Notes under the pieces: generated by a model | What the model was told of the DNA's origin: nothing | The model's database searches: none | What the model saw: only the letters and a program-made list of their open reading frames with translations | Shown here: piece by piece, positions 881 through 5,789 of the stretch | Numbering within the stretch: position 1 is the first letter of the stretch | Layout of the letters: each line of letters opens with the position of its first letter | Made by a program: the position numbers and the translations under genes | NCBI GenBank assembly: GCA_963788725.1 | Contig: CAWBHT010000003.1 | Span: 224,354-288,353, forward strand | DNA length: 64,000 nucleotides | Direction: 5' to 3' | Source: an uncultured Acidobacteriota bacterium | Lineage (GTDB): Bacteria; Acidobacteriota; Terriglobia; Acidiferrales; UBA7541

Positions 881-1333
881 TTAATCTTTGACAGGGCGTT
901 CGATCATTCCAAACTTCTTCGGATCAAAATCTTCCGGGAACACAGTCTTTGCGTCGTACTCTGCACCGTCCAGCTTGGCAAATTTCAATGAACCTGCATC
1001 GAGGATTGCTCCCTGTAGGCTGGTCGAGCCGCCCAAATTGTCTCTGCCAAGATTCGCGTTTCGTAAATTGGCGTTAATTAGAATTGCTCCCTTAAGGTCG
1101 ACCCCTTGCAGTTGAGCCCCCTCTAGGTCAGCGCCACTGAGGTCTGCGAGAAAGAAATTTGACCAATAGAGATCCGTCGAGCGCAAATTTGCGCTCTGTA
1201 GGTTTGCGCCATCGAAATGTGCGCCCTCCAACTTCATAGATTCGAGTACGGCCTCACGGAGATCGAGTTCTTCAGTATTTAGGTGAAGGTCACCATCGAA
1301 AAGCAGGTCGCCTCGTTTGTTCCTAATCTGCAT
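881..1333 (-). CDS. Pentapeptide repeat protein
   Basis: Tandem A(D/N)Lxx repeats (ANLQSANLRSTDL, ADLSGADLEGAQLQG) and a C-terminal GAEYDAKTVFP motif. Start ATG 1333 overlaps the rnr stop; the upstream part of ORF 881..1516 overlaps rnr. Confidence 0.85.
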   Translation of the reverse strand: MQIRNKRGDLLFDGDLHLNTEELDLREAVLESMKLEGAHFDGANLQSANLRSTDLYWSNFFLADLSGADLEGAQLQGVDLKGAILINANLRNANLGRDNLGGSTSLQGAILDAGSLKFAKLDGAEYDAKTVFPEDFDPKKFGMIERPVKD

Positions 1334-3930
1334 GTGAGCTATTCGCGAGTGCGAACTCGACGCGGCGGCGCATGGGGTCGATGCGTTCGGCGCGGACGCG
1401 GACGCGATCGCCGTGTTGCCAGATGCGCTCGCGCTGTGATTTACCGGTACTGCTGCGCTGCGCTCCGCGTCCTTTGCCGGGGCGCCGGTCGTCTGTGCGG
1501 CCGGACATGGCAACAATCGCGTGATCTTTTTCGCGATAGACGCAGCGGGCGCCCGTCGCCTCTTCGAGCGCGTTGATAGGCAGCAGGCCTTCCACGAATA
1601 CTTCGAAGAGTTCGACGAAGCAGCCGAACTTCTGCACCGAGATGATCAGGCCGTCGTACTCCTCGCCTAAATGTTCTTCCATAAATTGCGCGGTTTTCCA
1701 GTCGATGAGTTCACGCTCGGCTCCGGCGGCGCGGCGCTCGGCTTCGGAGGTCTCGACGGCCATTTCTTCGAGCTGCTTTTGCGAATAGACGAAGGCTTCG
1801 GCGTTGGGTATCGGCTTTGGAGAGGCCGGAGCAGATTCTTTGAGATGATCGAGCGCCCATTTGAGCGCGCGATGGACGATGAGATCGGGATAGCGGCGGA
1901 TCGGCGAAGTGAAGTGGGCGTACTCGTCGAAGCCGAGCGCGAAGTGCCCGAGCGAATCGGCAGCGTAGCGCGCCTGTTTGAGAGACCTCAGCATTAAGTA
2001 AGAAATGATGCGCTCTTCAGGTTTGCCCACGAGCTTTCGAACGAGGCGCTGATAATGTTGCGGCGTGATGCGCAAGTCCTCTGATGCAGCCCGGCAGAGC
2101 GACGCGCATGTTACGTTCGCGGCCATGGCCGTAGGAATCGGCGCGGCCTGCTTTTGCGGGAGCGGGGACGCGGCCATGGCGGACGGCGAGTTCGCGCTGA
2201 TGCAATCCTTCGACGCCGAGCGAATAGCCGAAAGCGCGCGCGAGTTCTTCGAACTCCAAGACTTTGCGCGCATCGGGCTTTTCGTGCACGCGGTGCAGCG
2301 CGGGAATCGCGCGGCTCAACAGATAATGCGCGACACAGCGATTGGCCGCGAGCATGAATTCTTCGATCAGACGGTGAGCGATGTTGCGCTCACTGCGCAC
2401 GATATTGATCATTTTCTGCTGGGCGTCAAATTCGATGACGCGCTCGGGCAGATCGAAATCGATGGAGCCGTGCTGATTGCGGCGGGCATTGAGGAGCAGC
2501 GCGAGTTCCTTCATGTCGCGGAAATGATGAGCTAGCGTCGCGTACTGCGCGGTCATTTCCGCATCGCCATCGAGCACTTTGTTGACGTTGGTGTAGGTCA
2601 TGCGCTCGGCAGAGCGAATGATCCCCGGAGTCATGCGCGCGCTGCGGATGTTGCCGACGGCATCGAGTTCCATGAGCGCGCTCATGACCAGGCGATCTTC
2701 ACGGGGCTTGAGCGAGCACATGCCGTTGGAGAGCGCTTCGGGAAGCATGGGCACGGCGCGATCGGGAAAATAGACGGAAGTGCCGCGAAGGCGAGCTTCG
2801 CGATCGAGTGGCATGGCGGTGCGCACGTAATGCGCGACGTCCGCGATGTGCACCTGCAGTTGCCACCCGCCGTCGGGGCGTCGCTCGACGTAGACGGCGT
2901 CGTCGAAATCGCGTGCGGTTTCGCCGTCGATGGTGACGATGGGCAGATGGCGAAAATCTTCGCGGCCCTGGCGGTCGACATCCTGCAATGCCTGCGCCAG
3001 GCGCTCGGCTTCGGCGGTGACGTCTTCTGGAAATACATGCGGGAGCTGGTGCTTGCGAATGATGATCTCGGTGTCGACGCCGATTTCGCCGGGACGCCCG
3101 AGAATTTCGATGACACGTCCACCTGGAGGCAGGCCGCCTTTGGGGAAGCGCAGCAGCTGAACGTTGACGACGGCGCCGTCGAGTTCGTCAAGATGCGGGA
3201 TGCGGCGGCCGCGCGGGTTGCGCTCTTCGGCGTCACTTAAGCCAAGTTTCCGGGCGAGACCGGGAGTGAGTTCCTGGCCGGGCGGAATTTCGATGTGATG
3301 CTGCATGCGAGCATCGTAGGGCACGACATAGTTGGCTCGCGAACCCGAAGCGTAGTGGAAGAGACCCACTACCGTGGGTTGCGCGCGATTGAGCACGCGG
3401 AGAATCCGGCCTTCCGCGCGCGCGCCGCTGGAGCGCGGGAGAATTTTCACCGCAACGTGATCGCCGTGCATGGCGTCTTCGATTGCGTCACGCGGAATGA
3501 AGATGTCGCCGTCGAATTGCGGCGCCGGTGTGTCGAGGACGACGAAGCCATAGCCATCATGGTGAAGGACCAGGCGTCCGGTGGCCTGGTCGCGGGAGAG
3601 TGAGGGCTGATTTGCAGGCGGCCGAGATTGATTAATAGCGGAGGCCGATGAGGGATCTGCGGCCGCGCGATCCTGCGAATCGCGCCTGCTCTGTTCCTTG
3701 AAGGGGCGGCGGTCAGCGTCGCCCTTGCGTCCACCCAGATGGTAGCGGCCGCCGGGGATTTCAGTGATCGCGCCGCGTTTTTTGAGCTTGGAGAGCATTT
3801 TGTAAAGGGGACGGCGGTCGGACTTGCGCAGGTGCAAGCCGGAAATGATCTCGTCGGCCGAGGAAGCGGCATTCCTAACTTGCAGAAAACGCAGGATGTT
3901 ATCAGGACTCAGGTTAGAGGGGCGAGACAT
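1323..3930 (-). CDS. rnr: Ribonuclease R (split by one frameshift near 2090)
   Basis: N-terminal ORF: HTH, cold-shock domains (DGYGFV, DAMHGD) and RNB motif TIDGETARDFDDA, VHIADV, RGTSVYF, IEEFMLAAN. C-terminal ORF: GHFALGFDEYAHFTSPIRRYPDLIVHR plus S1 domain. Confidence 0.93.
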
Positions 3931-3994
3931 AAAGGCTTCAGGCCGCCTGGCGCAGCCTGGCGGGAGACGCGAATTTTACTGAATTTCTTTGCTC

Positions 3995-4180
3995 CACGTG
4001 AAACCTTTTTTCGTTTTCAGGGGTTTCATAGGCAGGCCAACACACGACCGGCTGGCCGCCCTCCGTCAGGCTAGCCGGACTTTCCCCGAAAGGGGAACCA
4101 GGGAGGCGGGAAGACCTGGCCCGCCTCCCACATTTTGGTTCAAGCTTCCGTTGATTTTCCGGTTGAGGATTCACCGTACA
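3995..4180 (+). ncRNA. Candidate structured ncRNA, 6S (SsrS)-like
   Basis: Non-coding gap with several stems: 4048-4057/4069-4078 (G-U on +), TTCCCC-GAAA-GGGGAA 4082-4097, GGGAGGCGGG/CCCGCCTCCC 4101-4129, and a possible closing stem GTGAAACCTT/GAGGATTCAC. Contains GGCCAACA and GGTTCAAG motifs reminiscent of the 6S core. Ends are approximate. Confidence 0.45.
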
Positions 4181-4260
4181 TCGCTCGTCTTTGACAGCAC
4201 TTCACTCCTCCAAATAAATCGGACGCAGCTGCTTGCGATTAGAAGCATGGCATGCACGTT

Positions 4261-4770
4261 TTAGCGGCTGCGTTGCAGAGCCTGCAGGGCTGTGAAGGCA
4301 TCGCGCAGGGCTTGACGATCGAGGGGCGACGCGGTTGAGTCGGTGTTCAGTTCCCGCGTTTGTCTCTGCACCGCCGCAAGCGCCACCTCAATACGCTGGT
4401 TTAATTTGGCTTGGTCCAGCTCCAGCAACGCGGCAAGATACGGCTCGCGCCAATCGGTGATCGGGCTCCACGACGCGGCGTGGCAACCGTCGGCGAAAAT
4501 AAAAGATTGATAGTGAATGGGGACGGGAGACCCGTTTTTGTGCCGGAGAACGAACTCTCCGTCATCCGCACCGAGCCGAACAAACTGCTCGAAGCGTTTA
4601 GCAACGTCGGCGCTGTAGCTGACATCGTCGATTCTCATTCGCAAAAGCTCCGCACGCGAGTATCCGAGGAGCAAGCAAACGGCTTCGGAGCAATCGGTGT
4701 ATCGCCGGTCGGGGTCGGCGAAGACTACATATTCGGCGCCTTGCAGTTCGGGATGCGCGTGGCTCAGCAT
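4261..4770 (-). CDS. Small PAS-domain protein with a C-terminal helical domain
   Basis: PAS features (YTDCSEAVCLLLGYSRAELLRMRIDDVS; GEFVLRHKNGSPVPI) followed by WREPYLAALLELDQAKLNQRIE...RQALRDA helices. Start uncertain (4770 or up to 4884). Confidence 0.75.
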   Translation of the reverse strand: MLSHAHPELQGAEYVVFADPDRRYTDCSEAVCLLLGYSRAELLRMRIDDVSYSADVAKRFEQFVRLGADDGEFVLRHKNGSPVPIHYQSFIFADGCHAASWSPITDWREPYLAALLELDQAKLNQRIEVALAAVQRQTRELNTDSTASPLDRQALRDAFTALQALQRSR

Positions 4771-4997
4771 TTGGAAAGAATTGAACTTCTTACCAGAGAA
4801 TCCGCTGGGTTTCCATACGATTCGTTTCGTAGAGCGCAGGTCACCCGCGGAACAATGCTGTCGGGAAGGATTATGGAGGGGCACAGGCTTGCCGCGTGCG
4901 CCGTGGTGCGGATATTATCGAACTCCTTCGACCCTTGCGTGAGGGTTGTTGCGAAACATTGTCAGATTGCCGAGACGCCGCGCTGGGAGCAAATGAT

Positions 4998-5789
4998 ATG
5001 AAATACCTTGGAATTATATTGCTGTTGCTGGTGGCGCAAACCGCTGTTGCGCAAGATTGGGCACGCACTCAACTGCAGAAATCGCCGCGTCACCAGGAAT
5101 GGGTGACGGTGAAGCATGACGGGCGCTCGGTGGAGACTTTTGTGGTGTACCCGGAGTCGAAGGACAAGCGACCGGTGGTATTGGTGATTCACGAAATTTT
5201 CGGAATGACGGACTGGGTCCAGGATTTGGCGGACCAGGTCGCGGCGGCGGGCTACATTGCAGTGGCGCCGGATCTGCTTTCGGGGATGGGCCCGAGCGGA
5301 GGACGCAGCTCGTCTTTTCCGGAAGGCAAGACCATGGAGGCGGTAAGCCATTTGAATGCGGATCAAGTGACCGCCGATCTGAACGCTGCTGCGGACTATG
5401 GATTGAAACTGCCGGCGTCGAACGGAAAGCTGTTTGTCGCGGGATTTTGCTGGGGCGGAGGTCAGACGTTCCGCTTTGCTACGAACCGGGGAGATTTGTC
5501 GGCAGCCTTTGTGTTTTACGGCCCGCCGCCAGATAAGGATGCGATGGCGCGAATCAAGGCACCGGTATACGGATTTTACGCCGGTGATGATGCACGCATC
5601 GGCGCGACAGTGCCGGGAGCGATTGAGCAGATGAAGGCCGCGAGGAAAACGTACGAGCCGGTCACCTATGATGGCGCTGGGCACGGCTTCATGCGCGCCG
5701 GCGAGGCTCCGGACGCGAACGAAGCGAACAAAAAAGCGCGCACGGAAGCTTGGGAACGCTGGAAAACGCTGCTGGCAAAGTCGAACTAA
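4998..5789 (+). CDS. Secreted dienelactone hydrolase family protein
   Basis: Signal peptide MKYLGIILLLLVAQTAVAQ, HEIFG, GFCWGG nucleophile motif, GAGHGF. Confidence 0.9.
   Translation: MKYLGIILLLLVAQTAVAQDWARTQLQKSPRHQEWVTVKHDGRSVETFVVYPESKDKRPVVLVIHEIFGMTDWVQDLADQVAAAGYIAVAPDLLSGMGPSGGRSSSFPEGKTMEAVSHLNADQVTADLNAAADYGLKLPASNGKLFVAGFCWGGGQTFRFATNRGDLSAAFVFYGPPPDKDAMARIKAPVYGFYAGDDARIGATVPGAIEQMKAARKTYEPVTYDGAGHGFMRAGEAPDANEANKKARTEAWERWKTLLAKSN

What the first reader, a model, noticed from the sequence alone, without database searches (positions are those of the whole stretch)
3995..4180. Unannotated ~190-nt structured RNA divergent from rnr, with a 6S-like switch
Seen: three strong hairpins. 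A GAAA tetraloop and a G-U pair favour the + strand, and a possible closing stem (GTGAAACCTT 3998-4007 / GAGGATTCAC 4165-4174) encloses them. TGGTTC (4136-4141) can pair either with 5' GGCCAA or with GAACCA (4095-4100), which is partly sequestered in the GNRA hairpin. Known: 6S RNAs have GAGCCRAYA/GGUUCAAG cores and a GAACC/GGUUC hairpin that forms after pRNA synthesis. Inference: a branched or atypical 6S-like RNA, or a new lineage-specific ncRNA, outside the usual zapA context.
Basis: partly seen in the sequence, partly recalled or inferred. Interest (0 to 1): 0.7.

Follow-up and report, generated by a model that had tools for sequence, protein, structure and literature searches.

The report
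Stress-sigma small RNA, not 6S
This is a conserved ~100-nucleotide small RNA gene of uncultured Acidobacteria, not the 6S RNA first suspected; it is likely switched on by a stress-type sigma factor and is predicted to block translation of other genes by covering their ribosome-binding sites.

Summary
The three hairpins are real, but the 6S reading fails. The conserved unit is 4034–4136 (+), not 3995–4180: a short 5′ tail, a hairpin with a near-invariant CCUCC loop, a GNRA hairpin, and a terminator with a GACCUGG loop. All three stems covary (13 of 25 pairs, 33 sequences). The 6S-like TGGTTC, GAACCA and closing stem occur only in this genome, and the real 6S lies on another contig beside ymdB. 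Homologues were found in 82 of 132 genomes of one family (Ca. Acidiferrales), mostly divergent from rnr, and none was convincing elsewhere in the phylum. There is no Rfam match. One metatranscriptome contig starts exactly at 4034. Best reading: an ECF-driven trans-acting sRNA with an anti-Shine-Dalgarno seed. No target is established. This scan already reported the same RNA in another genome (e1-5225880).

The parts
4034..4136 (+). small RNA gene, about 100 nt (ends predicted)
   Evidence: Conservation block; covariation; an RNA-library contig begins at 4034 and a relative's contig ends at 4135 (contigs show neither strand nor true ends)
   Evidence: G two bases before AAC in 78 of 79 distinct upstream sequences that carry AAC; 2 further sequences lacked AAC; 27 nt to the predicted +1
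4021..4030 (+). predicted ECF-type -10 box GGGTTTCATA (family form G-K-R-TT-N-N-ATA)
   Evidence: T at position 20 after AAC in 78 of 79; same form before the conserved ECF sigma gene
4034..4047 (+). single-stranded 5' tail AGGCCAACACACGA
   Evidence: Mostly unpaired; near-invariant in the genus, variable in other genera and paralogues
4048..4078 (+). hairpin 1; 11-nt loop 4058-4068 with the anti-Shine-Dalgarno-like CCCUCC (4059-4064), the predicted seed
   Evidence: 7 of 10 stem pairs change on both sides in A1 and 8 of 10 in A2; CUCCG in 44 of 44 and CCUCC in 43 of 44 A2 rows; CUCC in 7 of 9 further diverged rnr-adjacent homologues
4082..4097 (+). hairpin 2 with GAAA (GNRA) loop; dispensable
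   Evidence: 2 of 5 pairs covary in A1; absent in paralogues L039, L040, L110, L177 and in L412
4101..4136 (+). hairpin 3, predicted intrinsic terminator, with conserved loop GACCUGG (4113-4119) and a U-tail that is weak in this genome (ACAUUUU)
   Evidence: 4 of 10 pairs covary in A1; at least 5 U in 10 nt in 31 of 32 correctly anchored rows; missed by the simple terminator scan here
3973..4002 (-). predicted sigma-70 promoter of rnr (TTCACG-18-TAAAAT), back to back with and overlapping the sRNA's -35 box
   Evidence: Only promoter-like site in 3850-4350; shuffles give mean 0.1. Two RNA-library contigs reach 3979 and 3984, beyond this -10 box, which does not fit a start just downstream of it
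1323..3930 (-). rnr (RNase R), divergent neighbour; split over two frames in this assembly
   Evidence: NCBIfam RNase_R matches both pieces; frame change near 2090

Best explanation
This is a conserved ~100-nt three-hairpin RNA gene that is likely transcribed on its own by an ECF (stress-type) sigma factor and is predicted to repress translation of several mRNAs in trans by pairing its CCUCC loop with their Shine-Dalgarno sequences. Shown: conservation, covarying stems, strand, a fixed promoter-like motif shared with a conserved ECF sigma gene, a terminator-like end and variable downstream genes. Inferred: the start at A4034; activation by the sigma encoded at G000:C12:89342-89941, released from its zinc-finger anti-sigma under an unknown stress; pairing aided by the genome's Hfq-like protein; repression of target mRNAs. 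It would be the repressing arm of that sigma's regulon. The overlap of its promoter with the predicted rnr promoter may also lower rnr transcription while the sRNA is on.
For: Found in 34 of 36 genus genomes by BLAST and in 82 of 132 family genomes by model R2 at E <= 0.01. Two-sided changes at 13 of 25 pairs, against 1-5 for slid controls. The loop stays fixed while its stem varies; in the most diverged homologues the promoter, a C-rich loop and the terminator are what survive. The promoter matches the E. coli sigmaE boxes GGAACTTTT and (T/C)GGTCAAAA and the preferred 26-27 nt to +1 (PMC1312014, passages). The same GCAACTT-N13-G[GT]GTT stands before the conserved sigma in 29 of 29 genus orthologues with upstream DNA and in 5 of 5 from two other genera. 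In G000 the motif is spacer-specific: 9 and 6 sites upstream of genes at spacers 12 and 13, against a mean of 1.7 (maximum 5) at 14 other spacers; 17 matches against 4 for the reversed control. Downstream genes differ in identity and direction, so it is not a leader. An Hfq-related protein is encoded (Hfq_1 29.4 bits, cut-off 27). Anti-SD loops act this way in AbcR1/2 (PMC8844928, passages).
Against: No target is established. GACGGAGG-type SD sites recurred across 9 genomes only for one TonB-dependent receptor family; that site was in just 7 of 28 orthologues and did not follow the loop change in genera g21/g22. SD contexts that fit the loop are not enriched in G000 (AC before GGAGG 24 of 371, about average). 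About 28 ECF-like sigma genes are present, and a second one has a similar self-promoter, so the sigma assignment is tentative. The 10 motif-downstream genes scanned were mostly DUFs, with no DegP, SurA or BamA, so 'envelope stress' is not shown. Only 3 of 8 copies away from rnr have a clear AAC-GTY promoter. Expression rests on low-depth unstranded contigs in 2 of 7 RNA runs laid, and the one from a near-identical strain runs on to 4206. CUCC is lost in 2 of 9 diverged homologues.
Confidence: 0.6

Rival explanations
1. An ECF-driven sRNA that works as a decoy: its two fixed loops (CCUCCGUC and GACCUGG) would bind a protein or another sRNA rather than mRNA leaders.
For: Both loops are near-invariant in A2. 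The terminator stem keeps the sequence G-A-G-G-C, with 4 of 10 pairs never varying, unlike hairpin 1. No conserved mRNA target was found.
Against: There are no GGA loops (the CsrA/Rsm site, recalled) on the + strand. Loop 3 is lost in 5-6 of 9 diverged homologues while CUCC mostly stays. C-rich anti-SD loops are shown pairing seeds elsewhere (PMC8844928).
Confidence: 0.2
2. Its main job is local: firing of the ECF promoter would block the overlapping sigma-70 promoter of rnr, or the RNA would be a dedicated partner of RNase R, so that the stress sigma tunes RNA decay.
For: 77 of 88 hits have a divergent rnr in the fetched DNA, mostly about 100 nt away (many loci are the same genomes counted twice). 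The linkage holds across genera. The two -35 boxes overlap.
Against: Promoter competition does not explain fixed loop sequences. At least 8 copies lie away from rnr, and one genome has 6 matches. rnr without a detectable RNA upstream was seen in 9 of 18 family regions fetched.
Confidence: 0.1
3. A riboswitch or attenuator: loop-1 CCUCC would pair with the GGAGG arm of hairpin 3 (a pseudoknot) and prevent termination.
For: The pairing is possible in 97.7% of cells in A2. One contig reads through to 4206.
Against: No covariation at all (0 of 5 pairs; equal to shuffles). Downstream genes are unrelated and often convergent, as here.
Confidence: 0.04
4. An atypical second 6S-like RNA of about 190 nt that binds RNA polymerase and refolds after pRNA synthesis.
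For: GAACCA and TGGTTCAAG are present in this genome, with a short likeness to the real 6S (E 0.058).
Against: The motifs are private to 1 of 32-33 sequences. No RF00013 hit here; the real 6S is elsewhere. The closing stem's 5' half is the promoter. There is no rod with a central bubble.
Confidence: 0.02

Closest known systems
sigmaE-dependent sRNAs (MicA, RybB, MicL of enterobacteria; VrrA, MicV of Vibrio; FoxI of Fusobacterium nucleatum)
   Same: Stand-alone short RNA behind a sigmaE-like promoter with a terminator; proposed repressing arm of an ECF regulon (PMC9546586 and PMC1312014, passages read).
   Different: No Rfam match, so no sequence homology was detected. The likely seed is a hairpin loop rather than a 5' end. 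The sigma is only SigW/RpoE-like, below the curated cut-offs, with a zf-HC2 anti-sigma. Outer-membrane-protein targets were not shown.
Anti-Shine-Dalgarno loop sRNAs (AbcR1/AbcR2 of the alpha-r15 family and NfeR1; cuckoo/CcsR and RsaE recalled from memory)
   Same: C-rich CCUCC seed displayed in the loop of the first hairpin of a 100-120-nt three-hairpin RNA (PMC8844928, passages read).
   Different: Different phylum and sequence; one aSD loop, not two or three; ECF-type promoter rather than LsrB, RpoH1 or NtrC control; second conserved loop on the terminator.
6S RNA (RF00013)
   Same: Only a local GAACC / GGUUCAAG likeness in this one genome.
   Different: Half the length, three separate hairpins, own terminator, no conserved closing stem or bubble; the true 6S is at another locus.
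Acido-1 (RF01686) and Acido-Lenti-1 (RF01687)
   Same: Acidobacterial ncRNA candidates from comparative genomics (PMC2864571, passages read).
   Different: Neither model matches this place at E <= 10 (RF01687).

Membership tests
6S RNA | Match to covariance model RF00013 | tested here: not met
   No hit at E <= 10 in 3000-5500; the only genome hit is on contig C5
6S RNA | ~180-200-nt rod with conserved closing stem and central bubble (recalled definition) | tested here: not met
   Conserved block is ~100 nt; closing stem in 1 of 33 sequences, pair probability about 0.15
6S RNA | Conserved GAACC/GGUUC core motifs | tested here: not met
   GAACC in 1 of 33, downstream GGTTY in 1 of 32
6S RNA | Binds sigma70-RNA polymerase and templates pRNA | not testable with these tools
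   Needs a pull-down and small-RNA reads; only contigs were available
ECF/sigmaE-dependent trans-acting sRNA | ECF-type promoter directly upstream, shared with an ECF sigma gene | tested here: met
   Motif match only:
ECF/sigmaE-dependent trans-acting sRNA | Independent unit with intrinsic terminator and no conserved ORF or downstream gene | tested here: met
   U-run in 31 of 32; varied downstream genes; ATG in only 15 of 44 A2 rows
ECF/sigmaE-dependent trans-acting sRNA | Transcription actually depends on the sigma factor | not testable with these tools
   Uncultured lineage; needs a reporter or in vitro transcription
ECF/sigmaE-dependent trans-acting sRNA | Represses envelope-protein mRNAs by base pairing | tested here: inconclusive
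   No conserved target; the TonB-receptor lead failed
anti-SD loop sRNAs (AbcR/alpha-r15 type) | Exposed conserved CCUCC seed | tested here: met
   Loop unpaired; CCUCC in 43 of 44
anti-SD loop sRNAs (AbcR/alpha-r15 type) | Homology to the Rfam family | tested here: not met
   No such hit for the window or for 9 diverged homologues
Acido-1 / Acido-Lenti-1 | Match to RF01686 / RF01687 | tested here: not met
dispersed repeat | Many copies per genome | tested here: not met
   One copy in G000; 1-6 matches per genome in relatives

The most novel reading that the evidence does not exclude
A two-seed sRNA that closes a direct feedback loop on its own activator. The terminator loop GACCUGG pairs with codons 2-4 (CC AGG UC) of the conserved ECF sigma mRNA, the CCUCC loop silences SD-led targets, and the promoter competes with that of RNase R. 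In G000 this sigma mRNA ranks 4th of 3317 start regions for loop 3. CCAGGTC is exact in 22 of 34 orthologues, with one more G-U variant, and Arg3 is always the rare AGR codon. Against it: the site is broken in 11 of 29 genus orthologues with no change in the loop, and the mRNA's own UGGC/GCCA hairpin around the AUG can explain part of the constraint.
Probability: 0.15. Interest if true: 0.62.

Novelty: new member of a known kind. Interest (0 to 1): 0.4.

Why it matters
It is a well-supported sRNA family, absent from Rfam 15, in an uncultured acidobacterial lineage, and my literature searches found no characterised regulatory sRNA there. If the ECF link holds, the 'sigma activates, sRNA represses' design known from Proteobacteria and Fusobacterium extends to another phylum with an unrelated RNA, and the predicted sigma, promoter and seed can all be tested in E. 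coli. It is not a new class of RNA and says nothing new about 6S; a by-product is the location of the sub-threshold true 6S in this genome.

Tried and rejected
6S: rejected. SRP: present elsewhere at C12:341118-341215. Minus-strand leader of rnr, with an ACGGA CsrA-like loop: rejected, because GNRA loops, G-U pairs, the U-run and the promoter all point to +, although the two strands fold about equally in one sequence. Dispersed repeat: rejected. Phage copies: 1 pattern match in viral contigs, no model hit. Pairing of 5' AGGYC with loop-3 GACCU: no covariation, and the middle pair is broken in 36 of 43. Loop-1/terminator pseudoknot: no covariation. TonB-dependent receptor C5:39647-42265 as target: its SD site is in 7 of 28 orthologues, sits in the mRNA's own hairpin and does not covary. 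The target screen used 117 of the 150 listed matches (401 in all), from 8 relatives plus G000, so it is partial; no IntaRNA or CopraRNA was available, and gene starts came from my own ORF caller. 5'-tail targets: no perfect match of 10 nt or more near any start. Second sigma candidate C5:217065-217625: found in only 7 of 30 relatives, so a poorer fit. Outside the family, 6 of 149 phylum genomes gave 24-29-bit hits; the 6 loci checked had no rnr and no clear promoter motif, and the seventh follows a gene end, so I treat them as terminator matches. RNA runs: 7 of the 22 listed were laid; none covered 3985-4033, while a run of unrecorded kind spanned it, but holes in contigs prove nothing. Literature searches showed no report of this RNA in the listings returned; subscription papers and supplements (for example those of Weinberg-type motif surveys) were not seen. 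A 6S survey paper was not held, so the usual 6S gene context is recalled.

Full report
Observation. The region folds into three hairpins; 4034-4137 has z = -4.15. No Rfam family matches beyond two chance-level hits. The divergent gene is RNase R; the gene on the other side is a convergent PAS protein.

What is conserved. BLAST found the element in 34 of 36 same-genus genomes and in 0 of 24 genomes of other families. Conservation begins at a promoter-like block near 4000 and stops at a U-run near 4136; nothing 3' of it aligns. On alignment A1 (33 sequences, aligned without a structure), 97.8% of cells pair and 13 of 25 pairs change on both sides, against 1-5 for slid controls. The model-fitted alignment A2 (44 rows, more genera) gives 18 of 25 but leans towards the model. 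GNRA variants, G-U pairs and the U-run fix the + strand. The loops RCCCUCCGUCA and GACCUGG stay fixed while the stems vary.

Range. Their titles are almost all Ca. Acidiferrum/Acidoferrales, Acidobacteria gp2 or uncultured Acidobacteriota. Seven carry other phylum names but sit beside rnr with near-identical RNAs, so I infer mislabelled records. Model R2 hits 82 of 132 family genomes, including 32 of 33 in the genus, and 0 of 8 in the order's other families; only weak terminator-like hits appear in 6 of 149 other phylum genomes. A divergent rnr is in the fetched DNA for 77 of 88 hits; at least 8 copies lie elsewhere. Of 18 further rnr-upstream regions from the family, 9 hold a diverged homologue (8 by model at E < 1e-4, 1 by eye); all 9 keep AAC...GTT, 7 keep CUCC and 3 keep GACCUGG. 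G000 has one copy.

Not 6S. TGGTTC, GAACCA and the closing stem occur only in this genome (one mis-anchored row set aside), and the closing stem loses to a local hairpin. The 6S model finds another locus, C5:45436-45661, before ymdB, whose orthologues pass the Rfam cut-off in 2 of 5 relatives.

Promoter. This resembles the sigmaE boxes and spacing in PMC1312014 (passages). My genome scan flagged two ECF sigma genes with the motif. One (C12; SigW/RpoE-like, followed by a zf-HC2 anti-sigma) is in 29 of 30 relatives at 81-97% identity and has GCAACTT-N13-G[GT]GTT in 34 of 34 orthologues with upstream DNA; the other is in 7 of 30. The motif is spacer-specific upstream of G000 genes, and 12 of 17 strict matches are intergenic. 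The genes behind them are mostly DUFs, several with signal-peptide-like starts judged by eye, and no classic envelope chaperone was among the 10 scanned. A sigma-70-like rnr promoter overlaps the -35 box on the other strand.

Expression. Of 7 RNA runs laid, one has a contig (1 mismatch) that starts exactly at 4034 and runs to 4206, and another has a relative's contig ending at 4135; a run of unrecorded kind spans the promoter. This is a weak hint: depth is about 4, the contigs are unstranded, and DNA carry-over is possible.

Mechanism. Varied downstream genes exclude a leader, and the alternative internal pairings show no covariation. The longest-lived features are the ECF-type promoter, a CUCC loop and a terminator. 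That is the anatomy of anti-SD sRNAs such as AbcR1/2 (PMC8844928, passages) placed under ECF control like FoxI, RybB and MicA (PMC9546586, passages). An Hfq-related protein is encoded. I therefore commit to an ECF-induced translational repressor (0.6). Targets remain open: the single recurrent SD candidate failed. A second lead, loop 3 pairing with the start of the sigma mRNA itself, ranks 4th of 3317 in G000 and is exact in 22 of 34 orthologues, but lacks covariation and is partly explained by the mRNA's own hairpin.

Novelty. There is no Rfam family; it is not Acido-1 or Acido-Lenti-1 (PMC2864571, passages); and no report appeared in the listings of seven literature searches. An earlier unchecked note of this scan (e1-5225880) describes the same RNA in another genome with the same reading. 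I had reached that reading before the look-up and tested the promoter and loop claims here; its 'envelope stress' claim is not shown by my data. Verdict: a real new sRNA family of a known kind, lineage-restricted, interest 0.4.

Noticed in passing
window 1323-3930 (-), frame change near 2090: rnr is split over two frames in this assembly (652-aa open frame), whereas relatives mostly have open frames above 800 aa; an assembly error or a strain-specific frameshift.
   Followed up: partly
L001:1501-1726 (G000:C5:45436-45661): The genome's true 6S RNA, below the Rfam cut-off because of a 47-nt apical stretch that does not align to the model; it lies before ymdB with no zapA or rny seen in the locus.
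   Followed up: yes
L193:2846-3442 (G000:C12:89345-89941): Conserved ECF sigma with a predicted leader of only about 12 nt, a hairpin around its AUG with compensatory changes in two relatives, and a conserved ACGUCCA/UGGACGU hairpin in codons 5-12.
   Followed up: partly
L352:1000-1150 (upstream of G000:C5:39647): Leader of a conserved TonB-dependent receptor with a recurring CCGCC...GGCGG stem and an SD-covering hairpin in many orthologues, which looks like a cis-regulatory RNA; not scanned against Rfam.
   Followed up: no
L037:818-923, L039:2944-3022, L040:3020-3106, L107, L108, L110, L177: Paralogues away from rnr keep both loops but change the 5' tail or drop hairpin 2; one genome (G253) has 6 matches.
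   Followed up: partly
L122:2177-2244: A second, partial copy (terminator hairpin only) about 1 kb downstream of the full RNA in the same record.
   Followed up: no
L041:1456-1800 (G000:C15:127130-127474): Diverged Hfq-related protein with a long N-terminal extension; below the PF17209 cut-off and above PF21979.
   Followed up: partly
L397-L400 (genus g24 rnr upstream regions): No homologue beside rnr in 4 of 4 regions, but weak R2 hits elsewhere in 9 of 43 g24 genomes, such as L055 with a GCCUCCGUC loop at a gene's 3' end; possibly relocated homologues.
   Followed up: partly
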